This document shows positions 1 through 22,811 of a stretch of 22,811 bases of DNA, in pieces (the first letter of the stretch is position 1; every line of letters starts with the position of its first letter). Position numbers and translations under genes: made by a program. The DNA comes from a virus. The stretch lies in IMG/VR virus record IMGVR_UViG_3300031466_000110; one strand, 5' to 3'. The notes beneath the pieces were generated by a model, which was given only the letters and a program-made list of their open reading frames with translations, did no database searches and was not told where the DNA came from.

Positions 1-3000
1 CTTATCTGGCGGGGTAATCATACCATTCAGTACCATGATGAAGATCATGATAAAGAGCAGGAACAACAAGACCATCTTAAGCGCCGGAACCACGATGACA
101 TTCAGAATATCCGAAGCCAACAGAAGGAGTCCAGTGATGAAAGAGGTCTTTTTGACCACCCGAACATACAAGTCCTCATCAGACAACATCGGCTCGCCCG
201 TTGAATTCATAAGGATCAACCGCATAAAGGCATCATAGTTGAAGTTCTTCAACTCAAAACCCTGTGGGTACTGAATGGAACTTTCTCCAAGAAAACGAAT
301 CTCCGAGAACTCCTTATTAAAATTGAAAGTTGCCGACATCGCCGCCGCTGTAAGCAAAACATCATCGTCAAAGTCATAGTAGTTAATGAGATACATCATA
401 TCACGGTAGGTCTCTTTCAACACGTTTTGAATCTTTTGCTCCACCAACGTAAGATCAGATTCCTTAAAATACTTCGCATGCATATCCGCAGGGGAGAAGA
501 TCATCGGTCTACCGCTAATTTCATAGTACGATGGATTGATAGTGTCGTCCAAATAATAAGACTTACCAGCGGCTCGATAACTACCATGCGAGAAAGAAGT
601 CGAATAAAGCTGATCAACCCAAGGACTATACAAGAACCAAACCTTCTCCAGATTTGTATTGTGTTGCATCAGACTTTCATACTCTTGATACTCCTTAAGC
701 TTCCGTTCATAATCTGGGTCACTCGGATCTGGCATGGTCGGAGCGATAACGTTTGACATATCCTTGTAGTCCTTACCATACTTATTCACATAACGATAGA
801 CATAATCGTTACCCTGTTGCAAGTACGGAATGACATACGTGAAAAGACCTTCCAAATCCAAGAAGTCACGAAGCTGATTATTATACAGCTCACCCGTTTC
901 ACCTTTAACCCGGAAGATATTTTCATTCAACAAGTCGTTACGGAAATTCGTCCCCAATTGTCGGTTTGCCAAAGCACTGTAGAAGTAGTAGAAAGGACTT
1001 TCCGTAATCAATGCGAAGGCTCGGTTACGACTGTTATTGATGCTTCCAGAAAAACCTACCCCCGTGTCAACGCTGGAGTTAAAAATAGCATTATTGATAT
1101 CCTGACTGCTGAGGAACCAATAGCGATAAATCTCTACCTTTTCCTTCTCCGCTTGAGAACCATTTGTGTTCCAAAGCGGATCACCTTTGTTAATCGGAGC
1201 CACGCGAGCTACCCGTTGCTCAATTTCTGGGGAAAAAGTAAAGTTCACCTTTCCCAAAATTTTAGCAAAACGTTCATCAGGCAAACCCGCAAAACCATTA
1301 ACTTTCGACTCCAGTTCCGCAAGTACCCCCGCCTTTGACACGTTCTCGTCACGCATATCCTTGACCATGTTCTTTGCTTCAAGCGCTATCGTATTATAAG
1401 AACGATAAACATAAGTTGCCAAAGGATCGTTATAAACAAACTGATCTTGCGTGAGGAACGATGCAAAAATCCAGCGAAAGATACTCAGGTTAGAAGTGAT
1501 GTTTTTAGTGACCGTTGAAGTTCCGTTTATTTTCTTAAAGTAGTCATAGCGTTTCGGTGCCATCCACTTCAGCGTAACGCTAGGTGTGCTACCGTAAGTG
1601 TTTGTCATTTGTTGAGCCGCAACTTCAATATTAAACTCAAGCGGGTCACCTGTCTCCGCCGCCTTACTCAAACCACGAACACTTTGCTCATGCTGAACAA
1701 TCGCCCAGTAATTAAAGCGATCCGAGAAAATACGGTCAGACACACTGTTCGTAAGGTTAATAACCCCCGAAAGCAAGAACTGCGGTAAAAAGAGTAGAAA
1801 TGCCATCACAATGAAGGTCAATACCCCCTCCCGCAGGGAGCGCACGTTGACCGCAACCATCAAAATACACAAGATGAACGTCACAACCAACACGCAGAGG
1901 TAGACCAACATATAATCCTTCAAAAGCCATGCCGTCAACGGCAAATCCGTTAAACTCGGCGTGTTAATGAACCCCACGACTGAACCGTAAGAGTTGCCGC
2001 CACCTGCCGATACCGAGAAGTCCTTTCCGACCCAAGAACCGACAATGCTATGATGCGTCGAAATGATCCAGCTATCTTGCGTCGCTTTAATGATATTGTT
2101 ACGATATTGACTTTCTCCATCGCTTAACAACGAGTACATTTTGCGAAGCAAGTCCCGAGCCAACACTTCGTCCGTCATCTTATCCGATGCCACCGCTCCA
2201 GCAGAAGTGAACGCATCGGAGAAACGGAAACCACTACCCCCGGAAACATTGATGTTAATAGTCGGAAGATACTGGTTAGAGAACAGTAACTCCTGCTCGA
2301 TATTATCCTTCCCCGCACCGAGCAGACCCACCATGTACCCCCAATAAATCCCCACGAAGTAGTTCACTTCATTATAGATGGCACTTTCGAGCTTAAACTT
2401 CGAGTCGCTACCTTGATAAGAAGGAACCTCAGAACCCGCATTTACCCCTCGCAACGCTCCACGAATTGAGTTCGGTACCCCGAAGACCTCGTAGATAAAG
2501 AAATGCGCGATAAGGTTCCGCAACTCTTGTGTGGGCGGGTAGTTCATCGCACCTTTCTCCAACTGTTGATAACGCGAATACAAATCCCCGGAGAAATACC
2601 ACTCGGAGCCAAGAGACGTAAAGTAATGGTGTGACGCAACCGAACTCGAAGGAACCGCTACCCACGAACCGTCTGTCACCAACTGTCCAAGCAAGCTGTC
2701 TTCCTTTGTAAAGGAAGCCGAAACCACCCTTTTCTTCCCCGTCCACGGAATATCGAACAGGAACTTAAAATTATCCTTCAACACAACTTTTTCCGCACCA
2801 AGAGGTGTCGGTAAAAGGGAAGAACCGATAAATTTCGTAGTCGTGCCCTGCGAAAGAAACTTCGCCAACGACTGCAAGAGAGACGAGTAAGAAACCTGTG
2901 AAGGCGTAGAGCGCGTAGTTTCCCAACTCTTAAAACGACTATCGAACGTCAAAGTATTAAAGAAATCCCTAATATCCTGCCTTACAAGAGGTGGATCAGG

Positions 3001-4614
3001 ACGATGTGCTCCAGAATTAAAGTAATCAGGATCTTCCTTCAAACTCGTGTACCGATCCTTGAAGTTTGAAGTCAGAAATCCATCTTGTGCTTCCTGCGTG
3101 TACCCGCCTTCAGTCCAAAAACGACTCAAAAGCGTCATTAAAGGAGAGCTGGCATGCGAACCATTATAAAAAGCGAAAGAATCCAAATACTCACCCGAAG
3201 ATTCATCGAAGATCGCCTTAGTGAACAAACGTTGCTTAGAGAACAAACTCATCTCATCACTGATCTCCAACTCCCCACTAAGGCTTTGATATGGGTTATT
3301 GAAGTAATACATCTCATCCGCCAACTCATTGAGACGGAACGCCAAACTTTCTGCGAAATACTGCGACAAAGACTGCCGAGCATTAGTCGTAAAACCAGAA
3401 AGATTCGACTCCTCAAACGCTTTAGTAGAGAAATAGGAGTTCTCCTTTACGTTATAATCGAGGAACACGACTGCGTTAGACTCAGACTTCAAGGCTCCAG
3501 TCTCAGAGTTAACAAAGTCCTTAATATCATCCAACGTAAGGCTAGAACCATACCCCTTAAAGAGCCTGTCCGAATTAGCGATATTCGGAGACACCGAATA
3601 TACCCCATAAAGGGAAACCGAGTTGCTCAAGCTGACCTGAGAGTCGAAAGCCACGTTATAGTACGGAATAAACTTATTTGGGTTATTTGAAAGATCGCCA
3701 GCATTAAAATGCATGATCGTACCCATAACAAACGTATTGGCAACCGGGAACTTCATCGAATTATTATCCAGACTTTTGTCCCCACCAAACGTCACCGGGT
3801 TCAATGCCGCCGGAAGTACAAGGACAAGTTTATTGTAATCATGCTCCCCTTCTGGTCTACCCCAGATATTCCCAAAACCGTCAAGATGGAGCGATTCCAT
3901 CTTGCGAAGACCCTTTTCCTTCGACATGACCATTTCTGATGACAAACCAAACAAGACTTTCAACGCCGCCCGCGTTGCCTTGTCATTGAGATTCATCACC
4001 TTTACCCCAACACCATTTTTGTTGAGGTACAAGTAAGGGTCATACGCCTCTACCGTATTCGAACCATCTACTTTTTCAGAGCTGTTCGCACCATCCGAAC
4101 GCATTTGCACACTGGCGATTTTCTTCAAGAGCAGTTCACCAGAAAGCTTCGTACCTTTATTTTTCGCTTCATCCGCCGTCGGATAAAGCGCAAAGGTACC
4201 GTTAACCGCTTCATCATAAATCGCCTGATGGATCAAACCGTTCAATTCCAAAAAGACCGAAGACTGTGCCAAGTCGTCCCCAAAAAAGCGTTTACTCAGC
4301 GTTTCTGAAAGTTCCTTAGCTTGTTGAGTGTCATTCTTCAAAGACTCCAGCGTCGTACTCCAAGGAATAAAGAAGTTCGACAAGAACACACCCCAGATAC
4401 GGGCTTCCGCTTGCTTCAACCCCTTCGGGTTGATATTGTTCTTATCCCGGAAATACCCGATCATGGAGGTCGCCATTTGATTCGCACTATTACCCCCTGG
4501 TACTTCAGCCGCCGTTACCTTACTAATTGGAACAATAAGCGAAAAAAGCAAAGGTAACGTAAGAGAAAACAAGAGAAATAGTGACACGAATTTCTTATGT
4601 CTTAAAAATATCAT
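1..4614 (-). CDS. Giant (>=1538 aa, 3' end beyond the window) secreted/multi-pass membrane protein of unknown function; VirB6/TraG-like topology only
   Basis: ATG at 4614-4612 overlaps the TGA of the upstream gene (ATGA). Manual translation reads MIFLRHKKFVSLFLLFSLTLPLLFSLIVPISKVTA/AEVPGGNS... with no stop through ...GMITPPDK at position 1. It is absent from the ORF track, which fits a frame with no stop in the window. It has a signal peptide, a TM pair at ~1760-1920 (YMLVYLCVLVVTFILCILMVAV; GVLTFIVMAFLLFLPQFLL) and further hydrophobic helices at ~20-140. Confidence 0.9.
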   Translation of the reverse strand, partial: MIFLRHKKFVSLFLLFSLTLPLLFSLIVPISKVTAAEVPGGNSANQMATSMIGYFRDKNNINPKGLKQAEARIWGVFLSNFFIPWSTTLESLKNDTQQAKELSETLSKRFFGDDLAQSSVFLELNGLIHQAIYDEAVNGTFALYPTADEAKNKGTKLSGELLLKKIASVQMRSDGANSSEKVDGSNTVEAYDPYLYLNKNGVGVKVMNLNDKATRAALKVLFGLSSEMVMSKEKGLRKMESLHLDGFGNIWGRPEGEHDYNKLVLVLPAALNPVTFGGDKSLDNNSMKFPVANTFVMGTIMHFNAGDLSNNPNKFIPYYNVAFDSQVSLSNSVSLYGVYSVSPNIANSDRLFKGYGSSLTLDDIKDFVNSETGALKSESNAVVFLDYNVKENSYFSTKAFEESNLSGFTTNARQSLSQYFAESLAFRLNELADEMYYFNNPYQSLSGELEISDEMSLFSKQRLFTKAIFDESSGEYLDSFAFYNGSHASSPLMTLLSRFWTEGGYTQEAQDGFLTSNFKDRYTSLKEDPDYFNSGAHRPDPPLVRQDIRDFFNTLTFDSRFKSWETTRSTPSQVSYSSLLQSLAKFLSQGTTTKFIGSSLLPTPLGAEKVVLKDNFKFLFDIPWTGKKRVVSASFTKEDSLLGQLVTDGSWVAVPSSSVASHHYFTSLGSEWYFSGDLYSRYQQLEKGAMNYPPTQELRNLIAHFFIYEVFGVPNSIRGALRGVNAGSEVPSYQGSDSKFKLESAIYNEVNYFVGIYWGYMVGLLGAGKDNIEQELLFSNQYLPTININVSGGSGFRFSDAFTSAGAVASDKMTDEVLARDLLRKMYSLLSDGESQYRNNIIKATQDSWIISTHHSIVGSWVGKDFSVSAGGGNSYGSVVGFINTPSLTDLPLTAWLLKDYMLVYLCVLVVTFILCILMVAVNVRSLREGVLTFIVMAFLLFLPQFLLSGVINLTNSVSDRIFSDRFNYWAIVQHEQSVRGLSKAAETGDPLEFNIEVAAQQMTNTYGSTPSVTLKWMAPKRYDYFKKINGTSTVTKNITSNLSIFRWIFASFLTQDQFVYNDPLATYVYRSYNTIALEAKNMVKDMRDENVSKAGVLAELESKVNGFAGLPDERFAKILGKVNFTFSPEIEQRVARVAPINKGDPLWNTNGSQAEKEKVEIYRYWFLSSQDINNAIFNSSVDTGVGFSGSINNSRNRAFALITESPFYYFYSALANRQLGTNFRNDLLNENIFRVKGETGELYNNQLRDFLDLEGLFTYVIPYLQQGNDYVYRYVNKYGKDYKDMSNVIAPTMPDPSDPDYERKLKEYQEYESLMQHNTNLEKVWFLYSPWVDQLYSTSFSHGSYRAAGKSYYLDDTINPSYYEISGRPMIFSPADMHAKYFKESDLTLVEQKIQNVLKETYRDMMYLINYYDFDDDVLLTAAAMSATFNFNKEFSEIRFLGESSIQYPQGFELKNFNYDAFMRLILMNSTGEPMLSDEDLYVRVVKKTSFITGLLLLASDILNVIVVPALKMVLLFLLFIMIFIMVLNGMITPPDK

Positions 4615-6809
4615 ACAAACCCCACCCACTCCATGAAGGTATAGTAAATGTCCACAAAGAGACTGATTAACCAAGGCGCATTTGCACAGAGAACAGAAAG
4701 CGCGTAAAGCGACAAACTTATGACCACCATTCGACCGAAGGTTGCATAAGTTACACCACCTTCAGACGGATACTCGGAGTGGAAACGGAATGGACGAATT
4801 TCACCCGGAGAAACATTCAGTCTCCCGAAAGTCAAGAAACCAAGCAACTGGAAATCCCCAAAAAAGTTCGCTCGGTCAATCCAGTACACCATCAAAATCA
4901 AAGATGCATAGAAAGAAAGCAGAATACCAAAACTCAAAAGGATCACATAAATGACCCTCCCTAAGAAAGAGGTTTCTGTTTCCTCCAGCTCCACTCTAAT
5001 TTCCTGCAAACGATTCCACTCTGCGTAAGAGAGCGGAATTTCCTCAACTTCAAACAACCCCTTGATATGACTCAACAACTCTTCTGCGTATACCCCTGAC
5101 ATAGACTTGGCATGATCACTCCGCAACCAAGACATCAAATCCTGATTTTCAACATAGTAATTGTTATAAAACAGAACAAAACCACCATACCCCGTCTCGT
5201 CAGCATAGAACCCCGCACTGATCTCGAAAGACGGTGGACGCAAATCCTTAAAATCCGTATGGTTACTAGGGTCAGTGTGATCCGACTTGCCCGGAAGGAA
5301 AGCATAGTGCAACAAACGAGCGTCAGAATAACCCGTAATCGAATACACCGCAAAAATATCTTGGTTAGTTCCAATCAAGGTAGCCTTCGTCGCATAGTCA
5401 TTCCGAAAATGCAACTCACGCCCCGTAAAGTAAACCTTCCCCGTAGAAGGAATGTCCATACCCCCATCAATAATGGGAACCGTGTTACCTTCGGAATTCG
5501 TGGCTACCCCCGACGAGACATTCGGAACGAAAACCGCCTCCTTATACCGAAGCGGAACAACCGCACCAATAAACTTGGAGGTTCCTTCCGAAGGCTTTCC
5601 GTCATCATCAACTTCCAATTTCGTGATAACCAAACTATCCAAAACGATATTATACTTCGCATAGTCTCCGGCACTTTTGAAGTTCCCATTCTCATCTTCC
5701 GTATAAACCTCATTAGTAGTTACGCGAAGTCTCACCCCGTCAAAGAGTTTATACCCCGTCGTATCCTTCAAGAAGTAGGTTCCACGATTCGCCGCAAACT
5801 CAGAGAACTTAAACGGCACTGCCAACCGCAACGTAGTATCCACTGCATGGAGCGGAGAAACCTTAGTCTTACTGCGCTGAGACGTCACTTCTTTAATCCC
5901 ACCGCTATTCGTCCCCAGAACCGTACTTTGAATCTCCGACAGCGACTCACGACCCTCAGAACTGATAATAAAATCCCGATAATTTTCATTGACCGCAAAA
6001 GTAACGCGTTCTTTATTAGTCGTCGGCGTTGGAAGCCCTGTAGTCGTCTCCCAACTTGTTACCCCTTGCACTTCCGAGAACTTCATACGCCCCCGGAAGG
6101 GATGCATGAGGTAGTCCAACGAATAACTGATACTGGAATTCGCCTTAAGCTTCCCCTCCGACCCATCCGAAGGAAACTCAATCAAGTCCTTCAGATAAAC
6201 CTGACGAGAAGAAGGATAGAAAGTATAAACGTTAAACGCATGCGCCATCGACCCTACCGCAACAGACTGCTTCACCACGTCCGCATAGCGCTTAAACAAC
6301 TCTTGCGCCCTGGCGATTTCCTTTTGGTTTACATATTCATAATGTCCGCCACTGGCGACAAGTACCCCGTCCACTTTTTTATAATCTGCTACATAAATTT
6401 TCCCTTGAGGTACATAGACCTTCAAGAAGTCCGACCCATTACGCAAGTAGACGTAATGACCTTCAGTTGACTCCTTAAAACCACCAACATCTGAAGAAGT
6501 GATGGTGCTCCAAAGAGAACCCGCATAACCCCCAGAGAGATACTCGTAATCCAGACCCCCAACGACCGTAATCCCATTATGCAGAGTCCCTGTATCCAAT
6601 CCTTTTACCGAGTCAATAATGTTTTTCTGTAAATTCATAAGAAAAGAATCAAAGTCGACAGAAGACCCCGAAGCACCATACAGCACCAAATTTCCGTTAG
6701 CATCCACCGTGTAAATCGTATCGGCGTGAACATCCTTCACAAAGAAGAATGGGAGTGCCAACAAGAGCAACATAAAAGAAACACAGAGCTTTCGAGTTTG
6801 TATCAGCAT
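4611..6809 (-). CDS. 732-aa secreted protein with large extracellular domain and C-terminal membrane hairpin; unknown function
   Basis: GGAGGGGAG RBS; signal peptide ending VHA/D; long beta-rich, Gly/Ser/Thr/Tyr-rich domain; two C-terminal hydrophobic helices (VIYVILLSFGILLSFYASLILMVYW; MVVISLSLYALSVLCANAPWLISLF). Confidence 0.9.
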   Translation of the reverse strand: MLIQTRKLCVSFMLLLLALPFFFVKDVHADTIYTVDANGNLVLYGASGSSVDFDSFLMNLQKNIIDSVKGLDTGTLHNGITVVGGLDYEYLSGGYAGSLWSTITSSDVGGFKESTEGHYVYLRNGSDFLKVYVPQGKIYVADYKKVDGVLVASGGHYEYVNQKEIARAQELFKRYADVVKQSVAVGSMAHAFNVYTFYPSSRQVYLKDLIEFPSDGSEGKLKANSSISYSLDYLMHPFRGRMKFSEVQGVTSWETTTGLPTPTTNKERVTFAVNENYRDFIISSEGRESLSEIQSTVLGTNSGGIKEVTSQRSKTKVSPLHAVDTTLRLAVPFKFSEFAANRGTYFLKDTTGYKLFDGVRLRVTTNEVYTEDENGNFKSAGDYAKYNIVLDSLVITKLEVDDDGKPSEGTSKFIGAVVPLRYKEAVFVPNVSSGVATNSEGNTVPIIDGGMDIPSTGKVYFTGRELHFRNDYATKATLIGTNQDIFAVYSITGYSDARLLHYAFLPGKSDHTDPSNHTDFKDLRPPSFEISAGFYADETGYGGFVLFYNNYYVENQDLMSWLRSDHAKSMSGVYAEELLSHIKGLFEVEEIPLSYAEWNRLQEIRVELEETETSFLGRVIYVILLSFGILLSFYASLILMVYWIDRANFFGDFQLLGFLTFGRLNVSPGEIRPFRFHSEYPSEGGVTYATFGRMVVISLSLYALSVLCANAPWLISLFVDIYYTFMEWVGFV

Positions 6810-7895: not shown

Positions 7896-8546
7896 CTAAA
7901 AACCAAATCTACTGGTGACCCAACTTACAATTAAGTCCCATAAACTGAACAAAGTATGATCAAAGAAACTTAAAAGTAGGTTGATCGCCGCCAGTGCGCT
8001 GATAATGTTACACAAGTAGAACATGAATGTTTCCCAAGGTCCGCCTGTTGCAAAGAAGCTAGTCTTAGGTACAAGTCGAATCTTAAAACCGGGGTACAAA
8101 TGAATTCCCTTCGGATTCAACGCATCAAGTGCCAAGTGACTCGCAAGACCAAGCTCAAAACCCACTAATAACATTCGTATAATCAAACCTTCTATACTAT
8201 TGAACGCCGCAAAACCAAAGACCTGCTCCCAGTATAAGATCAAGGTATGCAGAAGAAAGATAAAACCCCCAGTGACCAACAAGGAGTGCGTTTGCCAACT
8301 TCGATGTTTCGGGCGGGTTAAATGCAACAGGAAATGCACAATTTTATTAACGGGCGTTTTCGCCCCAACACTCTCCCAGTGATGATCCAAATCGGGTAAA
8401 GTAGATGCCCATTGAGAGACAGGGTACATAATCGACAACTGGAGAAGTGGATGAATTTCCGGGGTCAACATCCCCTTCATTCGCATATATTCAAAACCAA
8501 CCATCATAAAGGCAACTCCGCCCGCACGATGTGTTTTACCTAACAA
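7896..8546 (-). CDS. YdjM-like (LexA-binding, inner-membrane-associated) putative metal-dependent hydrolase
   Basis: TTG start after AAGGGGGT; family motifs THRAGG, LPDLDH, HRSWQTHSL and SHLALDALNPKG; several TM helices. Confidence 0.85.
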   Translation of the reverse strand: MLGKTHRAGGVAFMMVGFEYMRMKGMLTPEIHPLLQLSIMYPVSQWASTLPDLDHHWESVGAKTPVNKIVHFLLHLTRPKHRSWQTHSLLVTGGFIFLLHTLILYWEQVFGFAAFNSIEGLIIRMLLVGFELGLASHLALDALNPKGIHLYPGFKIRLVPKTSFFATGGPWETFMFYLCNIISALAAINLLLSFFDHTLFSLWDLIVSWVTSRFGF

Positions 8547-9338: not shown

Positions 9339-9353
9339 AACCAGTACCCCTCA

Positions 9354-10250: not shown

Positions 10251-10391
10251 TCACAATACCCCCTATGCACCTTGGTGAGGTAATATAGACTTCATTCTAC
10301 AAGATGCCACGAAATTTGGGTTTATGCCGTAAGAACAACGAAATTATCTTATATCGTTACAAGAAGCGCTGATTCCCACAGTTAAAATCGC

Positions 10392-11852: not shown

Positions 11853-11892
11853 AAAGGACACCTCCAAAAAATACCCCGTAAATGGTCATTAA

Positions 11893-11956: not shown

Positions 11957-11974
11957 GAGCTATGGACACTGTTA

Positions 11975-13048: not shown

Positions 13049-14146
13049 TCAGGAAGCCGAACGCCGTGCCGCCAACTCCATTTCGGTGATATCATCGAAG
13101 TGACGCGGCGGCTCAACAACGAAATGCTCATCCTCCAGCCGTTGCACATTGACCGAGATCATATAGCCGTTACCCCGCATCGAGAAGAAGTCGTGATCCT
13201 TCGTTTGCGTCGAGATGCCATTGAGAATGATCGGGTTGACCTGCGCGGCATCGATATTGAACGGAGCTTCGATCCCGAGCAGACTGTGCGCACGGTCAGC
13301 ATTGTACTCGACGTACTTGACCACTTCGTCCGTAAGCCCAATCGGGTCGTAAACGCGCTGGGTGTACTCAATCTCATTCCGATGCAGATCGTGGAACAGT
13401 TCATGGAACTCGTTCAGCGTCGCCTCCCGCTCAGAATCGGACATCGAAGCGAGAACTTCCTGTGCGAGTACCCCCGTGTACAGACCGTGAAGGCTTTCGT
13501 CCCGAAGGATCAGTTCAATGATTTCACCGCTGGCAGTCATCATACTCTTACCGGAAAGGTACAGTGGATAGAAGAAACCGCTGTAGAACAGGTAGCTCTC
13601 CAAGAGAACCGAAGCCGCCAACGTCAGGAAATGATCGCGGGGCGTCAAAGTGCCGTTGACCTTATTGATGAGTCCACGCATATAATACTGGTTAATGCGT
13701 TGAACCTTGTAGTTAAGGTTCGGCTGATTTTCACCCCACTCGTGCAGAGCCGAAATTTCATCCGAAGTAAGCAGAGTGTTGAAAATAGCGCTATACGACT
13801 CCGCATGGATACCCTCCATCGCACCCATGAAGGAAATGAGCGTCTTACGCTGATCGCTCTCCGTCACGAAGCCGACAGCGGGCATGCCACTGTTCATTTG
13901 TTTAGTGTCAAGCCCGGTCAGCCCAACCAAGACCTGCGAATACGCCGTCCGCTGAGCCGGAGTTAAATCCGCCCAAACGAGCTTATCCTCCAACACCGGG
14001 AACTCCCGAGACACCCAAAACTGTGCGATGTTCTGCAACCAAATATCCAACGTGAAACCGTCGTCTGGCTTATTCCAGTTAACCGCCTTGAAATAAGTGT
14101 TGGTGATTTGACGACGCACTAACTCTTCTTGCGTGATCAGTTCCAA
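13049..14146 (-). CDS. nrdF: Class Ib ribonucleotide reductase beta subunit
   Basis: KAVNWN, QFW; metal ligands and radical Tyr intact: LTGLDT, MEGIHAESY, LESYLFYSGF, RDESLHG; HDFFS..GNGY. TTG start after GGTGAGGGGG. Confidence 0.96.
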   Translation of the reverse strand: MELITQEELVRRQITNTYFKAVNWNKPDDGFTLDIWLQNIAQFWVSREFPVLEDKLVWADLTPAQRTAYSQVLVGLTGLDTKQMNSGMPAVGFVTESDQRKTLISFMGAMEGIHAESYSAIFNTLLTSDEISALHEWGENQPNLNYKVQRINQYYMRGLINKVNGTLTPRDHFLTLAASVLLESYLFYSGFFYPLYLSGKSMMTASGEIIELILRDESLHGLYTGVLAQEVLASMSDSEREATLNEFHELFHDLHRNEIEYTQRVYDPIGLTDEVVKYVEYNADRAHSLLGIEAPFNIDAAQVNPIILNGISTQTKDHDFFSMRGNGYMISVNVQRLEDEHFVVEPPRHFDDITEMELAARRSAS

Positions 14147-14166
14147 GATTCAATACCCCCTCACCA

Positions 14167-16302
14167 TTAGACAGCGCAACTGACGCAAAGCTCATCTTCA
14201 ATGTTCTTACGCCGATTCCGAGTGTAATACAAAGACTTCAAACCGAGCTTGTTAGCATAAACATAATAGCTTGCCAACTCCGCCGTGCTAATATCCTGCG
14301 GAACATACAATGTCGTGCTGACCCCTTGATCCACGTGTTCTTGAATAACCGCGATAAGATCAAGCAGTTTCCGCATGTCCATATTGTACGCCGACTTGAA
14401 GTAGAATTGATTTTGCGGCGTAAGATGCGGAGCCGGATAATACGTCGTGGACTTGGCATACGAACGCTTGGTGATTACTTCCTGAATCGGCATGACCGAA
14501 CTCGTTGCGTTTTGCACATACGAAATGGACTGCGTCGGTGCGATAGCCAAACGGTAAGCGTTGTACAGCCCTTGCATTTTAACCTTCTGCGCCAGCTTCT
14601 TCCAATCCTCCGGCGTCGGGATATGCATACCTTCGAAAAGCTTGGCAACCTTTTCCGTCTTCGGGCGATAGTCATTGATGAAATATTTCTCGAAGTACTC
14701 GCCCGTATAATACGTGGAAAGCTCGAAACCATCGAAGGATTTACCCCGATCCTTAGCGACGTCAGACGACGCGTCGAGCGAATAATAGTTCATCATCATG
14801 AAGAAGGTACGAGCGAAATCCAACGCCTCAAAGGATTCGTAAGCGATATGATTCTTCGCCAAGAACCCATGCAAGTCCATCGCACCCAAACCGACCGAAT
14901 GCAGTTCACGATTGGCTTTGCGTACCCCCGGAGCGTTAACAATATCCGACGCATCAGATACGTCCGAAAGCAGGAACATAGCAACGCGCACCGTATCCGC
15001 CAACGACTTGGATTCCATGACATTGGTGATGTTGAGCGACGCAAGGACGCAAGAAATATCACGACGAATGATGTCCTCGACGTTATAATCGGTGATTTCC
15101 GACACTTCTTGCAACTGCATGATCTCGGTGCAGAGATTGGTCATAAGGATACGCCCAACCCGATGCAGAGCATGACGCTTGTTCGCATTGGTGATATTGA
15201 AAATATACGGGTACCCCGACTGAATTTGAATTTGCGCGATCTTTACAAGAAAATCGCGGGCATTCATAATTTTCTTCTTCCGAATGCGCTCGTCGTTGAC
15301 AAAGGTGTCGTAGTAAACATCAAAGTCAACGTCCGTCATGCGCATACCGTAATATTTGCGAATATCGTAAGGACTGAAAGCGTAGAATTCTTGATTCGCT
15401 TCCGCCAGATCGTAAAGCTTCTTCGGAATGATTACCCCGATGGAGAGGTGCTTAAGCAAAGCATTCTGGTCAGCCGTAACCTTTTTCGTATCAAGGAACG
15501 GGATAATGTCCAAATGGAAGCAGTTAAGGTACCCCGCTCCAGCTCCTTTGCGGAGTCCGCCTTGGTCGTAATAGAAAAACTTCTGCTCAGCTTGTTTAGC
15601 GAGTCCGACTACCCCTTTAGCTGTGCCTTTACGCCCGTTTACCGGATCGCCGGAAGCCCGAATGTTCGAAAGGTCGAAAGCTACTCCACCGCCAATACGG
15701 GAAAGTTGAGCCATACAACCGAGCGTGTACTCGATGGAGTTGGTTGTGTCATCGAAAGTCAACAAGAAACAGGAAACGCGTTCACCACCCCTAGCCTTAC
15801 CCGAATTCGAGTACGCCGGGGTTGCAGGTTGCAGACGACGAGTACCAATCTCGCGAATGTACTCCATCGCGCGAGCTTTGTTACCCCGAGCGATGGAAAG
15901 GGCAGTAATGGCGTTCCGAAGATGGTAATCCTCAAGGAACCACTGCCGATCATCCGAACGCAGGAGATACTCTTCCCACAGCTTGGATACCTGCGTGAAG
16001 GAGCAGAAACGCGAATCGATACTGCGAGCTTGATGCAGAGCTTCAATGATGAAATGATCGGAGTAGTATTTCCGAATGTCCTCGTAATACCCATTCTCGA
16101 TCAACCACACCACGCGCTCGAAATCGGAGTTGAACTTGACCGTTTTTGCGTCGACATAACGCAGATACTCCTCCATCGCTTCGCGGTCTTTATCGAGCTG
16201 AAAAAACCCGTCCGCGCCGCGTTGAGTGATCATGTTGTTCAACTCAATGAAACGGAAGTCCGTTTCGTTGACTGCAGGAGCTTCAGAAATTTGCGACGAC
16301 AA
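14167..16302 (-). CDS. nrdE: Class Ib ribonucleotide reductase alpha subunit
   Basis: FIELNN N-terminus without ATP cone, QPATP, VSCFLL, GGGV, SGYPY, TNLCTEI, LAIAPTQSISY, SLYYTR, C-terminal CVSC. Start re-assigned to TTG at 16302 after AAGGAGGT. Confidence 0.97.
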   Translation of the reverse strand: MSSQISEAPAVNETDFRFIELNNMITQRGADGFFQLDKDREAMEEYLRYVDAKTVKFNSDFERVVWLIENGYYEDIRKYYSDHFIIEALHQARSIDSRFCSFTQVSKLWEEYLLRSDDRQWFLEDYHLRNAITALSIARGNKARAMEYIREIGTRRLQPATPAYSNSGKARGGERVSCFLLTFDDTTNSIEYTLGCMAQLSRIGGGVAFDLSNIRASGDPVNGRKGTAKGVVGLAKQAEQKFFYYDQGGLRKGAGAGYLNCFHLDIIPFLDTKKVTADQNALLKHLSIGVIIPKKLYDLAEANQEFYAFSPYDIRKYYGMRMTDVDFDVYYDTFVNDERIRKKKIMNARDFLVKIAQIQIQSGYPYIFNITNANKRHALHRVGRILMTNLCTEIMQLQEVSEITDYNVEDIIRRDISCVLASLNITNVMESKSLADTVRVAMFLLSDVSDASDIVNAPGVRKANRELHSVGLGAMDLHGFLAKNHIAYESFEALDFARTFFMMMNYYSLDASSDVAKDRGKSFDGFELSTYYTGEYFEKYFINDYRPKTEKVAKLFEGMHIPTPEDWKKLAQKVKMQGLYNAYRLAIAPTQSISYVQNATSSVMPIQEVITKRSYAKSTTYYPAPHLTPQNQFYFKSAYNMDMRKLLDLIAVIQEHVDQGVSTTLYVPQDISTAELASYYVYANKLGLKSLYYTRNRRKNIEDELCVSCAV

Positions 16303-16648
16303 GAGATTCAACCTCCTTATGGAAACGCTCAACATCATAGAGCGTTCCGTTTAATTCAAACTTGGAAACTACCCTTACATGATAAAAGTCTGCGATCCGA
16401 TCAGCGGCTTTACCAAAGTTCGCACCCCAGTTACGATTACCGCTGGACGCTACCCCCATCAGACGCTGATGGTTATTCCGCAGAAACTCAGCAGTGCTTA
16501 CCGGAACCTGCCCAAAACCCGTGGTATAGGTAACCAAAACGAATGGCTCCTCAATCACCAACTCCGGGGTGATTTTAACGGCGGGCAAATCCAACTTCTT
16601 AATAAACCGCGCCACATTTCCTGTACGAGAATCAAAAGCAACCAGCAA
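16283..16648 (-). CDS. nrdI: NrdI flavodoxin-like protein for class Ib RNR cofactor assembly
   Basis: FDSRTGNVARF, LVTYTTGFGQVP, GVASSGNRNWG, KFELNGT. Start re-assigned to TTG at 16648, 9 nt after GGGAGG. Confidence 0.96.
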   Translation of the reverse strand: MLVAFDSRTGNVARFIKKLDLPAVKITPELVIEEPFVLVTYTTGFGQVPVSTAEFLRNNHQRLMGVASSGNRNWGANFGKAADRIADFYHVRVVSKFELNGTLYDVERFHKEVESLVVANF

Positions 16649-16767
16649 CGACAGCAACCTCCCATCAAGTAATGATCCTACAACCGCCCGACCCACAAAA
16701 GCCGGGAGCAAACGGTTGCTCCGTACCCCCACCGCCCCTAGCGGCGGGGCGTGATGAAGCGGTGATC

Positions 16768-17791: not shown

Positions 17792-18565
17792 TTAGGCGTT
17801 TGCCTTGTTGCCCGCGTACAGGATGTGGTTGAGGGCTTTGGCGATGTAGGTCGTGCTGGAGATCTTCTTGCCCTTCGGTTCGGCGGAAGCGCGGCGCGGA
17901 GCCTTCTTCTTGAACAGGTCACCGAACTTCTCTTCGTACTCCGGCTTGCAGACCCACTTGCCCGGTTCGACTTCTTCGTCGATGTTGGTGATGGAAGCCT
18001 TGATAGCGCCCTTCTCCAGCGTCAGCGTCGGCGTCGGCAGGAGAGCTTGGTTCGCAACGTAGGCGTTCAGACGCGGCGTGAAGCGAACGCCCTTCGGATT
18101 TTCGCCGTCCGAGCAGTAGCCGCCGTATTCGTCCTTGATCAGCAGGTACATGATTTCGTAGTAGGAGAGGATGAATTCCTCGCCCGCCTTCTTCGGTACC
18201 CACGTGATGTCGGTTTCCGGATTGATACCCGTGAAGCGGTCTTTCGTGATCGGGATTTGCGGAACCATGATGTCTTCCGTGGTGCGGAAACGTGCCGCAA
18301 CCGGAGTCGCGCAGTCGACGTTTTGGTCTTCAGCCACGCGACGGCTGGAGCGCTTGCTTCCCATGCCAAGGCATTCGAGGAAGATCAGGGTGTGCGACTT
18401 GGAGCCGAGTGCTTCGATTTCAGCTTCGGACATCGAAGCGACCAGTGCGCGACCTTGATCCGCGATCTTCTCGGAAGCCCGCACCTTTTCCTTACCTCCC
18501 TTGGTAGCGGCAGGAGCCGGAGCGCCAGCCACGTTTTGATCCACAGCAGAACGTTGGATTGCCAT
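17792..18565 (-). CDS. 257-aa hypothetical protein, probably highly expressed; paralogue of 11975..12790
   Basis: GAGGGAGG RBS, own promoter and terminator, strongly biased codons (AAG, TTC, ATC, TAC), basic C-terminal segment KKKAPRRASAEPKGKK. Confidence 0.92.
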   Translation of the reverse strand: MAIQRSAVDQNVAGAPAPAATKGGKEKVRASEKIADQGRALVASMSEAEIEALGSKSHTLIFLECLGMGSKRSSRRVAEDQNVDCATPVAARFRTTEDIMVPQIPITKDRFTGINPETDITWVPKKAGEEFILSYYEIMYLLIKDEYGGYCSDGENPKGVRFTPRLNAYVANQALLPTPTLTLEKGAIKASITNIDEEVEPGKWVCKPEYEEKFGDLFKKKAPRRASAEPKGKKISSTTYIAKALNHILYAGNKANA

Positions 18566-18681
18566 GACTTTTTTCCTCCCTCATTGGAATTGAAAATTTC
18601 GATTTTGGGAGTTGCGACCCCGACCCTGCCGCCGAGAGGTAAGTCCCTGCGGGGTAGGAGTAGTACCCCCTGACAGTAACA

Positions 18682-18710: not shown

Positions 18711-19123
18711 CTCATTTCTAAAAAATATTTTTCAAAATACTCCGCTTTTGTAACACACCATGTTTCATACCGTTACCGTCCGTAACCCCATGTACAAGGG
18801 TTGCGAGTACCCCAAACCGCACCACTCGTCACACCGCCGCTAAACAAGCTGTACGCGCCACAGAGCAAACATACAGGGCAACGCATAAGAGCGCAACCAC
18901 CGCTAAGTACCCCGCCTATACGAGCGGAAAAGGCGGGGTTAAAAGGGATTAAACAGATCGACAGGAATGTTTCAAAGTAAGGGAAAAAATGTTTCAGAAG
19001 AAAAAGGATGGTTTCCTACCAAGGTGCAAGGAGAACTCGTTCCAAGCAAGTATAAGTCATAAATATCATATCAAGTCGATAAGGAAGAAATTGTAATTCA
19101 ATCAAGGTACGCTTAAAGATCGC

Positions 19124-20288: not shown

Positions 20289-21269
20289 TTAACCCGCGAT
20301 GGCTTGTTCGAGCGTAACAGAGTCCACGCGAACGCCCGTCTCACGGTCAATGGGCGAGAGCCGGAAGAAGGTGACGATCTTCGTCTTGTTCTGCGCTTTC
20401 TCCTTGCTGGAAGGCTCCTTGTTGTCCGTAACAACAACCTTGGAAAGATCGTAGCTTGCCAACTCTTCCTCACTAACAGCCACGCGTTCCAAGATGGCGA
20501 AAACGCCGTCCTTGTCATAATGCCCGATACCGACGCGAACGTGCTGGATACGGCGGTTGACGAAATCGCGCAGGAGCTTGTTGAGCGATTTGCGAGTGTA
20601 TACCCCCAGATCGCGTTTGAAGAACGTCGATTTGCTACGGAGCAAATCGTAACCATAGTTAGCTTCCTTCAGCGCATCAGCCAGCGACTGACGGCAAGCT
20701 TCCTGACGGCTTTCGATGCTGTCACCGAACAGCGGCAGGTTGGCAAGATTTTCGATAACCTCGGCGCTCAGCCCGATGACCGTATGATCGTCCGTTGCAT
20801 CCGCCAGTCCGTCGCCAAGAGTGAAGGAAACCTTGTACGGGATACCTTCTTCCTCGATAACCTTCGCCACTTCCGTGTTGAGGGCTTCGAGATTGGTTTG
20901 CAGACGGAAATGGTACGTCCAAGTGTCCGCCCACTGTGCGAACTCCGTGATGAACTTGTCAAAGAAGTCCGGCGTCGCTTGCAGAGTGAAAACCTTGTGC
21001 AGATCATCGATCCACAGCTTGTGCGACGAGGAAGGACGAATGGTGAAGCGTACCGACTCAACAACGTCACTGTCCTCCGACACCGTGTAAATGCTCTTCG
21101 AGATGACTTCCTTCGGCGCATCCGGGTAGATATTCAGTGCGAACTGAACATCTGCCAGTTGTTGCGCCAGTTGATCAACCGTCGTACCCTCCTTCAGGAC
21201 GAAGCGACCGATCAAGGGTCGAAGCGCTTCTTGCGCTTCAGTCACTCGAAACTGAGAACCTCTGTACAT
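20289..21269 (-). CDS. 326-aa hypothetical cytoplasmic protein, probably highly expressed
   Basis: AAAGGA RBS; codon bias like 17792..18565; followed by a strong hairpin; no recognisable motif. Confidence 0.88.
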   Translation of the reverse strand: MYRGSQFRVTEAQEALRPLIGRFVLKEGTTVDQLAQQLADVQFALNIYPDAPKEVISKSIYTVSEDSDVVESVRFTIRPSSSHKLWIDDLHKVFTLQATPDFFDKFITEFAQWADTWTYHFRLQTNLEALNTEVAKVIEEEGIPYKVSFTLGDGLADATDDHTVIGLSAEVIENLANLPLFGDSIESRQEACRQSLADALKEANYGYDLLRSKSTFFKRDLGVYTRKSLNKLLRDFVNRRIQHVRVGIGHYDKDGVFAILERVAVSEEELASYDLSKVVVTDNKEPSSKEKAQNKTKIVTFFRLSPIDRETGVRVDSVTLEQAIAG

Positions 21270-21317: not shown

Positions 21318-22811
21318 TTAAGTTTCTTCCTCATCAGAAACCACCATACCCCGGAGTGATTCTTTCGCTCGCTTGCTAAAGCCTACGACCTTTTGGACGC
21401 CTTTTACAGCACCGCCAGTCATTTTACGCTCCAGCTTATAAATAGCATTTGCCAAAGTATCATCCAAGGACGATGTCTTCTTTTGGGTCGAAGACTTAGT
21501 CCCAAGAGTATTCGAAGAACTCGACGAATGTACATTTCCTTCTGAAGGAAATTTAGAAAATTCGTTTAACCTACTTGAAGTTGACGGTTGTTTAGGAATG
21601 TCGTTAAAATCAGACTCCAAATCATCTGGGTCTATGAAGTTGTCCGACTCAGGACGCTTCATGTCCTCGAAATAGTTTCGATCTTCGAAATCGTCGGTAT
21701 CATCGTCCTCAAAATCAGAGAGGTCGTCGTCCTCGTCCTCGGGTGGAAAGTCGTCGTCCTCGTCGCCTTCGAAGTCGGAAAGGTCATCATCGTCCTCGTC
21801 GCCTTCGAAATCAGAGAGGTCATCTTCATCCTCTTCTTGATAGTCGTCCAACTCGTCCTCGTCGCCTTCGAAATCGGAGAGATCATCCTCGTCACCTTCA
21901 AAGTCAGAAAGATCGTCCTCTTCCTCATAAACAACCTCGAAGTCATCATCGTCACCCTCGAAGTCAGAGAGATCGTCCTCTTCCTCGTCGACAACCTCGA
22001 AATCGGAGTCCTCATCGCCTTCGAAGTCTGCAAGATCGTCATCCTCATCGCCTTCGAAGTCTGCAAGATCGTCATCCTCAGCGCCTTCAAAGTCGGAAAG
22101 GTCATCGTCCTCTTCATCACCTTCGAAGTCGGAAAGGTCATCGTCCTCTTCATCACCTTCGAAGTCGGAAAGAGCGTCGTCCTCGCTATCATCGACAACC
22201 TCAAAGTCGTCCTCGTCGTCATTGAAGTCTAGTTCATCATCGTCACCTTCGAAGTCAGAGAGATCGTCCTCGTCAGAATACCCCACGTCAAGCTCATCCT
22301 CGTCGCCTTCGAAGTCGGAGAGATCGTCGTCCTCGTTAGGATCAGGCTCCTCGTAATTAGGGTCATTGTAATCGAAGGGTTCAATTGATTCCTCATCATC
22401 TGAAGCATGCGCTTCAAGCAAAGGAGCAAATTGTTCCGAGAAATCGGACTGGATCTCCGAGAAAGACGAAGGTACTGACTCAGTATGAGAGGGAGGAAAA
22501 TACCCCGGATCAGCCAACGCACCCAGATTCGCAAGGAACTCATCCCGGAGTTCCGTCGAGAACTCCTTATTTCTCAACCTTTCCAAAATAGAAGACGCAT
22601 ACGAATGGTGAAGAAAATCGTAAGTCCGTAAAAAGTATGAAGGTTGACCTTGCGAAGAAAGGAAATGGTCAATATAGGTCATTTCGTCCAGATCCCGAAT
22701 GAACCCCACCAAATCCAAGAAAGACGCGTCAACAGGAATATTCGGTACTTGATACCCCTGCAAGCATTTGCCGATATTTTGCAAGTACTGACGATAAACC
22801 GCTAAACTCAA
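21318..22811 (-). CDS. Asp/Glu-rich repeat protein (>=497 aa; the start may lie at or beyond the window edge)
   Basis: Open frame from the TTG at the last three bases; ~100-aa N-terminal domain, acidic repeat tract, Ser-rich linker and basic helical C-terminus. Confidence 0.88.
   Translation of the reverse strand: MSLAVYRQYLQNIGKCLQGYQVPNIPVDASFLDLVGFIRDLDEMTYIDHFLSSQGQPSYFLRTYDFLHHSYASSILERLRNKEFSTELRDEFLANLGALADPGYFPPSHTESVPSSFSEIQSDFSEQFAPLLEAHASDDEESIEPFDYNDPNYEEPDPNEDDDLSDFEGDEDELDVGYSDEDDLSDFEGDDDELDFNDDEDDFEVVDDSEDDALSDFEGDEEDDDLSDFEGDEEDDDLSDFEGAEDDDLADFEGDEDDDLADFEGDEDSDFEVVDEEEDDLSDFEGDDDDFEVVYEEEDDLSDFEGDEDDLSDFEGDEDELDDYQEEDEDDLSDFEGDEDDDDLSDFEGDEDDDFPPEDEDDDLSDFEDDDTDDFEDRNYFEDMKRPESDNFIDPDDLESDFNDIPKQPSTSSRLNEFSKFPSEGNVHSSSSSNTLGTKSSTQKKTSSLDDTLANAIYKLERKMTGGAVKGVQKVVGFSKRAKESLRGMVVSDEEET
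21700..22335 (-). repeat. Coding degenerate tandem repeat: 13 x L[SA]DFE (typically DDLSDFEGDE) plus 3 x DFEVV
   Basis: Recurrent TC[GA]CCTTCGAAGTC[GAT]G units on the + strand, all in frame, with synonymous variation. Confidence 0.92.

What the first reader, a model, noticed from the sequence alone, without database searches (positions are those of the whole stretch)
1057..22758. Strand-polarised, highly iterated hexamer GGGGTA throughout the window
Seen: a manual count gives about 57 TACCCC on the + strand (GGGGTA on the coding strand), roughly one per 400 bp, e.g. 1057, 1324, 2235, 2336, 2443, 2476, 3551, 3601, 9345, 14154, 16724, 18664, 22501. Only 3 occur in the opposite orientation (11, 8091, 18651). 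Sibling words are much rarer (AACCCC about 13, CACCCC and GACCCC about 8 each, rough counts). The word occurs in genes and in most intergenic regions, but is absent from 17792..18565 and occurs once in 20289..21269, the two most codon-biased genes. Established: polarised short motifs act as Chi (B. subtilis AGCGG), KOPS/SRS (GGGNAGGG, GAGAAGGG) or HIP1-type signals; GGGGTA is none of these. Inference: an element-specific architecture-imparting signal, for example for a translocase, recombination enzyme, primase, methylase or coating protein.
Basis: partly seen in the sequence, partly recalled or inferred. Interest (0 to 1): 0.8.

Follow-up and report, generated by a model that had tools for sequence, protein, structure and literature searches.

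The report
One-strand GGGGTA word, giant plasmid
This stretch of a giant plasmid-like element writes the six-letter word GGGGTA about every 400 bases on one DNA strand only; natural selection keeps it there, most likely as the start mark for the element's own primer-making enzyme, but what reads it is still unproven.

Summary
In detail: TACCCC occurs 57 times on + and 3 times on -, with about 6-8 expected. It is the commonest hexamer on the coding strand. It survives synonymous-codon, codon-order and context-preserving shuffles (z 15, 16, 8.6), occurs in all three frames and between genes, and is evenly spaced (gap CV 0.73, longest gap 1121 bp).

This scan has found the word before, in the adjacent window of this genome and in at least five other genomes. 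I re-tested those leads. pXO16 of B. thuringiensis has 658 copies on one strand and 5 on the other, with no polarity switch. Five unrelated 24-27 kb gut phages have 42-57 against 0-2.

New here:
- The family core is GGGTA, with lineage-specific flanks.
- A co-resident plasmid of the pXO16 host and a syntenic B. velezensis plasmid lack the word.
- T7 is not saturated with its own primase word.
- pXO16-type elements encode a split DnaG-type primase.
- The small phages share no protein with them.

Best reading (about 35%): a priming signal on the lagging-strand template, giving pppACCC(C). A Chi-like signal is the main rival (about 20%). Transcription and replication direction cannot be separated, and no host chromosome could be tested.

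The parts
1057..22758 (-). Array of 57 copies of 5'-GGGGTA-3' on the coding (-) strand (TACCCC on +), mean spacing 387 bp, longest gap 1121 bp.
1..4674 (-). Giant ORF (over 1558 aa, runs off the window) holding 12 copies in all three frames. Syntenic with the 1834-aa ORF of pXO16 and the 2023-aa ORF of the B. velezensis plasmid.
9345..9350 (-). Intergenic copy 6 nt upstream of the ATG at 9338. It may double as a weak ribosome-binding site.
10257..10262 (-). Intergenic copy 6 nt upstream of the ATG at 10250. It may double as a weak ribosome-binding site.
14154..14159 (-). Intergenic copy 7 nt upstream of the TTG start (14146) of the NrdF gene.
11..16 (+). Reverse-orientation copy (GGGGTA on +), one of three. 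About 1-3 are expected by chance, so reverse copies are neither avoided nor enriched.
8091..8096 (+). Reverse-orientation copy.
18651..18669 (.). Reverse copy (18651-18656) and forward copy (18664-18669) form an inverted pair GGGGTA-N7-TACCCC in an intergenic spacer. This is a possible hairpin, separate from the dispersed signal.
10392..11867 (-). Clamp-loader (DnaX-like AAA+) gene. Part of the element's own replisome, and the marker used to find relatives (41.6% identity to pXO16).
13049..16732 (-). Class Ib ribonucleotide reductase genes NrdF, NrdE and NrdI, in the same order as in the B. velezensis relative. They carry 11 copies of the word.

Best explanation
GGGGTA (family core GGGTA) is a priming signal. 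The element replicates in one direction, co-oriented with all of its genes, so the G-rich coding strand is the template of the discontinuously made strand. A primase encoded by the element reads 5'-G(G)GGTA-3' on that strand. The enzyme is of the DnaG type but split into a catalytic subunit without a zinc finger and a separate ~190-aa zinc-ribbon protein. The 3' A is the 'cryptic' base, which is recognised but not copied. T templates the first nucleotide, so the primer is pppACCC(C). A 5-6-base site would occur by chance only about once per 4-6 kb, so selection has seeded it every 300-500 bases and removed long gaps. Shown: the selection, polarity, even spacing, site conservation and family-wide core, and the split primase in pXO16-type relatives. 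Inferred: the direction of replication, that the primase reads this word, and that this window's own element has the same primase (only unchecked notes say so).
For: 1. The word is under strong selection at DNA or RNA level: (window z +15; pXO16 555 against 129, z +42). Each of the six positions is specific (after GGGGT, A 658, G 23, T 43, C 1 in pXO16). 30 of 33 sites are conserved between pXO16 and a B. toyonensis plasmid at 89.9% identity, against 59.7% for other hexamers (P 8e-5).
2. Even spacing with truncated long gaps and few close pairs: (pXO16 CV 0.71, longest gap 2071 against 3756, gaps under 50 bp 7 against 58; window CV 0.73).
3. The word's architecture matches known primase sites. 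T7 gp4 uses 5'-(G/T)2GTC-3' to give pppACCC, and B. subtilis DnaG uses CTA (PMC12839067). B. anthracis, S. aureus and Geobacillus DnaG use CTA/TTA with a cryptic 3' A, and the T7 H33A zinc-domain mutant reads GTA (PMC2978363).
4. The family core is the pentamer GGGTA with a variable 5' extension and flanks, as expected of a short primer template with lineage-specific context.
5. pXO16-type elements encode the parts. The stand-alone Zn_ribbon_DnaG has a profile that matches the DnaG zinc domains 1d0q and 2au3, and has I/V-F-H-C at the positions that set the cryptic base, as in xTA-type Geobacillus DnaG. A zinc-finger-less Toprim protein has a family profile that matches only DnaG catalytic cores in the PDB (2au3 at 1.4e-12; 1eqn, 1dd9, 3b39). 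There are also a DnaB-like helicase, a family-A polymerase and a clamp loader.
6. The zinc-ribbon family (129 cluster representatives) sits next to DnaB-like genes on contigs that nearly all carry polarised GGGTA or GGGGTA.
7. Host primases do not read it (Bacilli CTA/TTA, C. difficile CCC), and a co-resident plasmid in the same host lacks it.
8. It lies on the G-rich strand, which is the lagging-strand template if replication is co-directional with transcription.
Against: 1. Five complete small gut phages carry the same word at the same density without any zinc ribbon, DnaG core, helicase or polymerase, and share no protein with the giant elements.
2. Two relatives keep the zinc-ribbon gene but are not saturated: the B. 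velezensis plasmid and L058.
3. T7, the model site-specific primase, shows no enrichment or polarity of its own sites (162 against 186), so there is no precedent for a genome saturated with primase sites.
4. No canonical DNAG_N (PF08275) match lies in pXO16 itself. The catalytic assignment rests on a family profile.
5. Replication direction is inferred only from skew. Transcription direction is fully confounded with it in every carrier.
6. There is no compositional discontinuity around sites.
7. The primase genes of this window's own element could not be examined.
Confidence: 0.35

Rival explanations
1. Chi-like signal. The word tames a helicase-nuclease (AddAB/RexAB or an analogue) that enters at a DNA end or a collapsed fork and travels against the direction of replication. 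This limits degradation and triggers recombination-dependent replication.
For: Precedent: phages without recombination modules accumulate the host's Chi on one strand, where it becomes their commonest oligomer (LLS 20:3, MD8 32:0; PMC12315714). The small phages with the word have no replication or recombination genes. The word is G-rich and lies on the strand where chromosomal Chi is enriched. Minimising the expected degraded length also favours even spacing (inference).
Against: Chi is host-specific, yet the same word, with the same W..K flanks, occurs in B. cereus-group plasmids and in phages whose nearest relatives infect gut Clostridia. Known Bacillales Chi words are AGCGG and GAAGCGG (papers listed), and AGCGG is not enriched on pXO16 (83 against 147). 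A co-resident phage-plasmid in the same host lacks the word. Chi-rich phages cluster Chi near the entry end at about 1 per 1.9 kb, whereas here the word is 4-5 times denser, even, and depleted in close pairs. No AddAB-type PD-(D/E)XK nuclease is encoded by the elements. The host chromosome was not tested.
Confidence: 0.2
2. Orientation or loading signal for another DNA machine that moves one way along the element. Candidates are a conjugative or partition translocase, a helicase, a strand-specific nickase, or a polar coating protein.
For: The word is strictly polar and dispersed, like KOPS/SRS. pXO16 has an FtsK/SpoIIIE-type ATPase and an unusual transfer system without a known relaxase or oriT. 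A ParB_N-HNH nuclease recurs in the replication module of the family. A second, opposite-strand word (GGGTC) is selected in pXO16 and the small phages, which suggests a reader that distinguishes the two strands.
Against: No FtsK gamma domain is present in pXO16, the B. velezensis plasmid or the small phages. There is no polarity switch anywhere on the pXO16 circle, whereas KOPS converge on dif. pXO16 transfers oriT-less plasmids and chromosomal DNA, so transfer does not need a sequence signal. No HNH domain is present in five small phages. The density (1 per 400 bp) is 10-30 times that of KOPS.
Confidence: 0.12
3. Host-primase site read on the complementary strand. The complement of the small-phage word, 5'-CTACCCC-3', combines CTA (Bacilli-type DnaG) and CCC (clostridial DnaG), so elements seed strong host priming sites.
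For: +6 is G in 72-88% of small-phage copies and 47% of pXO16 copies, which gives CTA on the complement. This would explain phages without replication genes.
Against: In this window +6 is G in only 12% of copies, and in L010 the next base is T in 82%, so the family core does not create CTA. The C-rich strand would have to be the lagging-strand template, meaning replication head-on to all genes and against the usual skew. Co-resident pBTHD789-2, which depends on the host, is not enriched.
Confidence: 0.06
4. RNA-level signal on the single giant set of co-oriented transcripts: an anti-SD mimic that holds ribosomes (mRNA stabiliser), or a pause or antitermination mark read on the non-template strand.
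For: The word is always on the mRNA-sense strand. GGGGU can pair with 5'-ACCUC-3' of the anti-SD with one G.U pair (inference). Copies at ribosome-binding distance from starts are enriched in pXO16 (102 against 19) and slightly in the window (6 against 2.8). The ribosome is conserved across Firmicutes.
Against: 85-98% of copies are not near starts, and in the small phages 1-2 of about 50 are, the same as at random positions. The final A is nearly obligatory, whereas pairing would favour G (pXO16 GGGGTA 658 against GGGGTG 23). Relatives use DGGGTA with only three G. There is no NusG-like NGN domain above threshold. The co-resident plasmid in the same host is not enriched.
Confidence: 0.07
5. 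By-product of composition, codon or dipeptide usage, or of paralogous repeats.
For: The coding strand is G-rich (GGGG 151:22), and the context-preserving shuffle already yields 22 copies.
Against: z is 8.6-16 in all codon-aware shuffles. The word occurs in all frames and in spacers. It has unique flanking sequences, even spacing and site conservation. The same word is kept at 33% and 48% GC.
Confidence: 0.01

Closest known systems
Primase recognition sites of the T7 gp4 / T4 gp61 class (T7: 5'-(G/T)2GTC-3' giving pppACCC, ACCA, ACAC; PMC12839067, PMC2910064)
   Same: A short asymmetric word on single-stranded template. G-run, then T (first copied base), then a 3' cryptic base. GGGTA differs from T7's best site GGGTC only in the cryptic base, and a T7 zinc-domain mutant reads GTA (PMC2978363). 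The elements have a phage-like replisome (family-A polymerase, DnaB-like helicase, DnaG-type primase parts).
   Different: T7's genome is neither enriched nor polarised for its sites. Here the word is 7-10 times enriched, about 20:1 to 130:1 polar, and evenly spaced. The primase is split into two proteins. No biochemical evidence links it to the word.
Initiation trinucleotides of bacterial DnaG (Bacilli CTA/TTA; C. difficile CCC; E. coli CTG; PMC2978363, PMC5204125)
   Same: A zinc-ribbon domain of the same family (Pfam PF01807; PDB 1d0q, 2au3). The cryptic 3' A is as in Bacilli. Residues I/V-F before the third zinc ligand are as in Geobacillus DnaG.
   Different: Cellular DnaG starts on pyrimidine-pyrimidine (the primer begins with two purines) and needs only 3 bases, so genomes need no enrichment. 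Here the second copied base is G, and 5-6 bases are specified.
Chi sites and Chi-saturated phages without recombination modules (LLS, MD8; Zheng et al. 2025, PMC12315714)
   Same: One-strand, G-rich, and the commonest oligomer of the genome. Carried by phages that lack replication or recombination functions.
   Different: Chi is the host's own word and is also enriched on the host chromosome. In those phages it clusters near one end at about 1 per 2 kb. Here the word is shared across Firmicute classes, even, 4-5 times denser, absent from a co-resident plasmid, and unlike any known Firmicute Chi.
KOPS / SRS (FtsK / SpoIIIE orienting polar sequences; GGGNAGGG, GAGAAGGG, L. lactis GAAGAAG; PMC3384302)
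   Same: A G-rich polar word that follows the leading strand.
   Different: Those are 7-8-mers every 5-15 kb that switch polarity at dif and are read by a gamma domain. Here there is no switch, no gamma domain, and 10-30 times higher density.
pXO16 (pBTHD789-1, NC_018516.1) of Bacillus thuringiensis sv. israelensis
   Same: Cultured relative. Clamp loader 41.6% identical. Synteny of giant ORF, hydrolase and clamp loader. All 454 genes on one strand. GGGGTA 658:5.
   Different: 33% GC against about 48% here. Flanks are W-GGGGTA-K there and unconstrained here. pXO16 also selects a second, opposite-strand word (GGGTC) that this window lacks.

Membership tests
Primase recognition site (T7/T4 or DnaG class) | Word architecture: copied bases followed by a 3' cryptic base, with the first copied base T or C | tested here: inconclusive
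   GGGG-T-A fits (T copied first, A cryptic), and every position is specific. But the fit is by analogy with sites reported in PMC12839067 and PMC2978363, not by assay.
Primase recognition site (T7/T4 or DnaG class) | A primase with a zinc-binding domain is encoded by the replicon that carries the sites | tested here: inconclusive
   Met in pXO16-type relatives: stand-alone Zn_ribbon_DnaG and a zinc-finger-less DnaG catalytic subunit. Not testable for this window's own element (no genome held; only unchecked notes). Not met in the small phages.
Primase recognition site (T7/T4 or DnaG class) | Sites lie on the lagging-strand template | tested here: inconclusive
   They lie on the G-rich strand with constant skew, as expected if replication is co-directional with genes. 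Fork direction itself is unknown.
Primase recognition site (T7/T4 or DnaG class) | Primers start at the site | not testable with these tools
   Needs a primase assay or 5'-end mapping of Okazaki fragments.
Chi (RecBCD/AddAB control sequence) | The same word is over-represented and skewed on the host chromosome | not testable with these tools
   No genome is held for the window. Bacillus chromosomes could not be reached. Proxy: the co-resident plasmid pBTHD789-2 is not enriched (7 against 8.2).
Chi (RecBCD/AddAB control sequence) | The word equals the Chi known for the host group | tested here: not met
   Bacillales Chi words are AGCGG and GAAGCGG (papers). AGCGG is 83 against 147 expected on pXO16 and 30 against 22 in the window.
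Chi (RecBCD/AddAB control sequence) | Species specificity of the word | tested here: not met
   The same word and flanks occur in B. cereus-group plasmids and in Clostridia-type gut phages.
KOPS / SRS | Polarity switches at the terminus (dif) | tested here: not met
   No switch in 14 bins around the pXO16 circle.
KOPS / SRS | Read by a translocase with a gamma (winged-helix) domain | tested here: not met
   The pXO16 FtsK/SpoIIIE protein matches the motor domain only. PF09397 is absent from pXO16, the B. velezensis plasmid and three small phages. A host FtsK remains possible.
Shine-Dalgarno / STAB-SD type element | Lies 5-10 nt upstream of start codons, with sequence optimised for anti-SD pairing | tested here: not met
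   6 of 57 (window), 102 of 658 (pXO16) and 1-2 of about 50 (small phages) lie at that distance. The final A is preferred over the pairing base G by 658:23.
Type III restriction-site orientation bias (as EcoP15I sites in T7) | One orientation only, but no over-representation | tested here: not met
   The word is 7-10 times over-represented and evenly spaced. Avoidance alone cannot produce that.

The most novel reading that the evidence does not exclude
A portable priming code. A lineage of giant Firmicute plasmids carries a split DnaG-type primase that starts only at G(G)GGTA, so the plasmids must write that word every few hundred bases on one strand. Small virion-encoding gut phages without any replication genes have copied the code, including its flanks and a second opposite-strand word, so as to be replicated by the plasmids' replisome. 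That would make them replication parasites of plasmids.
Probability: 0.15. Interest if true: 0.9.

Novelty: new variant of a known kind. Interest (0 to 1): 0.7.

Why it matters
Strand-polar words such as Chi and KOPS are among the few 'architectural' signals known in bacterial DNA, and each one revealed a DNA machine. Here a different word dominates whole replicons of up to 350 kb and unrelated small phages, at a density and evenness not described for any known signal. The papers I could search on pXO16 do not mention it. If it is a primase code, it would be the first case of a genome shaped throughout by the sequence specificity of its own primase. It would also explain why these elements keep every gene on one strand, and it could reveal phages that depend on plasmid replisomes. 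pXO16 is cultured and transferable, so the question can be tested directly.

Tried and rejected
- Megablast of the window against phages found nothing.
- The first genome-contig scan, with the 326-aa protein, found nothing. The second, with the clamp-loader alignment, gave only an unrelated archaeal MAG.
- No whole genome is held for the window. The metagenome records of L010-L014 and the B. toyonensis assembly are not held. A Bacillus genome could not be addressed by name. So there was no host-chromosome test.
- I looked for a carrier with inverted gene blocks to separate transcription from replication. None exists among pXO16, L010-L014, the B. velezensis plasmid or the small phages. The reverse ORFs in the small phages are shadows of forward genes.
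- RBS explanation: rejected as the main cause.
- CAGTA as a variant word in L050: rejected. It is clustered (CV 1.5) and comes from a low-complexity ORF.
- TTAGATG in the B. velezensis plasmid: it is a stop/start gene junction, not a signal.
- The conserved ~290-aa protein downstream of the zinc ribbon as the catalytic primase half: rejected. Its motifs are RuvC-like, with a weak Pfam match.
- Sawtooth of strand composition around sites: none. Local T-richness is weak.
- GGGTC depletion on the motif strand as a linked signal: partly rejected, because the same-host control shows it too.
- Hairpin pairing of GACCC with GGGGTA: no positional coupling.
- HNH nickase shared with the small phages: none found.
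- Covariation of zinc-ribbon residues with the number of G: only a weak trend (F with GGGGTA, Y with GGGTA, one exception), confounded by relatedness.
- A paper search for the word returned only primer sequences.

Full report
**1. The observation**

TACCCC occurs 57 times on the + strand and 3 times in the other orientation, at the coordinates given. Dinucleotide-preserving shuffles give 7.5 +- 2.9 for both strands together. All 18 long ORFs lie on the - strand, so the word reads GGGGTA on the coding strand. There it is the most frequent hexamer (57; next 29) and the most asymmetric one.

Copies inside genes fall in all three frames (22/10/14). Eleven copies lie in the 1970 intergenic bases, a 2.5-fold higher density.

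- A synonymous-codon shuffle that keeps every protein and each gene's codon usage gives 7.8 +- 2.5 copies against 46 observed.
- A codon-order shuffle gives 6.1.
- A shuffle that also keeps the nucleotides flanking each codon gives 22.1 +- 2.8. One search repeats the synonymous test with independent gene calls.

Spacing is more even than random (CV 0.73, p 0.008; longest gap 1121 bp, p 0.009). The claimed depletion in two codon-biased genes is not significant.

**2. What the element is**

The window carries a clamp loader, class Ib ribonucleotide reductase genes (NrdI, NrdE, NrdF), a YdjM-type hydrolase, a Zot-like P-loop protein and many genes without a family. The clamp loader's best plasmid match (41.6%) is the 350-kb plasmid pBTHD789-1 (pXO16) of B. 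thuringiensis. The giant ORF, hydrolase and clamp loader are syntenic with pXO16 and with a 215-kb B. velezensis plasmid. No whole genome is held for the window.

**3. Earlier work in this scan**

The scan has met this word before: in the window adjacent to mine and in at least five other genomes. I treated those notes as leads and re-derived what I use.

**4. Relatives**

I fetched pXO16 whole:
- All 454 annotated genes are on one strand.
- GGGGTA occurs 658 times on the coding strand and 5 times on the other, 10.8 times the mononucleotide expectation. That is the highest ratio of all hexamers. It is evenly spread over 14 bins, and GC skew never changes sign.
- Spacing is strongly under-dispersed: CV 0.71, longest gap 2071 bp against 3756 expected, and 7 gaps under 50 bp against 58 expected.
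- The codon-aware excess is 555 against 129.
- Sites are conserved: 30 of 33 are retained in a B. toyonensis plasmid at 89.9% identity, against 59.7% for other hexamer windows.

Metagenomic relatives L010-L014 show that the family-wide invariant is the pentamer GGGTA (58-82 copies on one strand against 2-7 on the other in 12-21 kb). The flanks are lineage-specific:
- G at -1 in this window (73%) and pXO16 (71%).
- T after the word in L010 (82%).
- G two bases after it in L013 and L014.
- pXO16 prefers W-GGGGTA-K, while this window has no flank preference.

**5. Controls**

- T7, whose primase sites are known, is neither enriched nor polarised for them (KKGTC 162 top, 186 bottom; GGGTC 32 against 33 expected).
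- pBTHD789-2, a co-oriented phage-plasmid in the same B. thuringiensis strain, has GGGGTA at background (7 against 8.2). The word is therefore not a feature of that host's DNA, codon usage or general plasmid biology.
- The B. velezensis plasmid, although syntenic and co-oriented, is not saturated (24 against 17; GGGTA 89 against 67), and no other word takes its place.
- A more distant clamp-loader relative (L016) and one zinc-ribbon locus (L058) also lack it.

**6. The small phages**

A pattern search retrieved ten viral contigs. Five complete 24-27 kb genomes carry 42-57 copies on one strand and 0-2 on the other, about 10 times expectation. Their spacing is even more regular (CV 0.43-0.51), and the consensus is tCA-GGGGTA-G, the same flank rule as pXO16.

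They encode terminase, portal, tape measure, tail, holin, an Amidase_2/CW_7 endolysin and a small HTH protein. They have no polymerase, helicase, primase, zinc ribbon or HNH domain. tblastn finds no protein shared with the window, pXO16 or L010-L014. Their nearest relatives are human-faecal phages and an Acutalibacter phage. All their genes are co-oriented too.

**7. Candidate readers**

pXO16 encodes a phage-like replisome: a family-A polymerase, a divergent DnaB-like helicase, a clamp loader, a ligase and gyrase. It also encodes a DnaG-type primase in two pieces.
- The 190-aa zinc-ribbon protein (PF01807) belongs to a large family of stand-alone proteins (129 cluster representatives at E <= 1e-10).
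- Its profile matches the zinc domains of Geobacillus and Aquifex DnaG.
- It has I/V-F-H-C before the third zinc ligand, as in the xTA-type Geobacillus enzyme. These are the positions shown to set the cryptic base (PMC2978363).
- The 261-aa Toprim protein belongs to a family whose profile matches only DnaG catalytic cores among solved structures.

Zinc-ribbon loci from ten elements sit near DnaB-like genes, and all but one carry polarised GGGTA or GGGGTA. However, the word-less B. velezensis plasmid keeps a zinc-ribbon gene.

None of pXO16, the B. velezensis plasmid or the small phages has an FtsK gamma domain, an AddAB-type nuclease, a NusG NGN domain above threshold, or a canonical DNAG_N match.

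**8. Weighing the explanations**

The word is a selected signal read at nucleic-acid level.

- **RBS or anti-SD mimic.** This explains at most a minority of copies, and it is contradicted by the near-obligatory final A.
- **KOPS-like reading.** This lacks both its domain and its polarity switch.
- **Chi-like reading.** It has a real precedent and fits the gene-poor small phages. But Chi is species-specific, known Bacillales Chi words differ and are not enriched on pXO16, the same word spans two Firmicute classes, and a co-resident plasmid lacks it.
- **Priming signal.** It fits the word's architecture (compare T7 GGGTC giving pppACCC, and the cryptic A of Bacilli DnaG), the pentamer core with a variable extension, the strand, the spacing and the presence of a split primase. 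Host primases read other words. Its weaknesses are the small phages, the two word-less relatives with a zinc ribbon, the lack of precedent in T7, and the complete confounding of replication with transcription.

I put priming at about 0.35, Chi-like at 0.2, another polar DNA machine at 0.12, and the rest lower.

**9. An unexplained extra**

In pXO16 and the small phages a second word is selected on the opposite strand, 5'-W-GGGTC-W-3' (GACCC on the coding strand):
- pXO16: 126 against 60, z +11.7.
- Small phages: 47 against 15.
- Density is about one per 2.5 kb, and it is not positioned relative to GGGGTA.

It is absent from this window and from both negative controls. It is a third sequence feature shared by pXO16 and the small phages, which share no protein.

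**10. Verdict**

The interpretation as an architecture-imparting signal is right in kind, but the word is not specific to this element and its reader is unproven. It is a new variant of the known class of strand-polar words, and it can be tested in the cultured plasmid pXO16.

Noticed in passing
L002-L008 (pXO16) and G001-G005 (L034-L043): A second selected word lies on the opposite strand: 5'-W-GGGTC-W-3' (GACCC on the coding strand). It occurs about once per 2.5 kb, z +11.7 in pXO16 and about +10 in five small phages under synonymous shuffles. It is absent from this window and from both negative controls, and is not positioned relative to GGGGTA.
   Followed up: partly
window 18651-18669: A reverse and a forward copy form an inverted pair GGGGTA-N7-TACCCC in an intergenic spacer. 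It may be a hairpin (terminator or regulatory), distinct from the dispersed signal.
   Followed up: no
window 21703-22327: Fourteen copies of GAGGACGA on the coding strand (TCGTCCTC on +) lie at multiples of 3 bp inside the ORF 21318-22811. This points to an acidic (Glu-Asp-rich) tandem-repeat region in that protein.
   Followed up: no
L047:10619-11494, L049:10601-11485, L054:10591-11631 and five other loci (alignment A3): The stand-alone primase zinc-ribbon gene is always followed directly by a conserved ~290-346-aa protein with RuvC/RNase H-like motifs (GLDIS..STG, IED, D..D). Only one weak Pfam RuvC match supports this. The pairing is conserved across the whole family.
   Followed up: partly
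L044 (NZ_CP076292.1, B. velezensis 215-kb plasmid): A cultured, syntenic, fully co-oriented relative of these elements in the B. subtilis group is NOT saturated with the word, although it keeps the zinc-ribbon gene. It is a natural negative control for experiments.
   Followed up: partly
P0164 (identical to the pXO16 Toprim protein): The collection records this exact protein on 108 contigs, the longest 6.6 Mb. In some assembly the pXO16 sequence may be joined to, or integrated in, a chromosome.
   Followed up: no
G001 (L034) 18047-19386: The small phages have a ~1.3-kb stretch between holin and endolysin with almost no ORFs.
   Followed up: no
window 11882-12814 (+) against 11975-12790 (-): Two long overlapping ORFs lie on opposite strands, and neither matches any Pfam family. 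The + one would be the only reverse gene of the window, but it carries two word copies in the usual orientation and is most likely a shadow ORF.
   Followed up: partly
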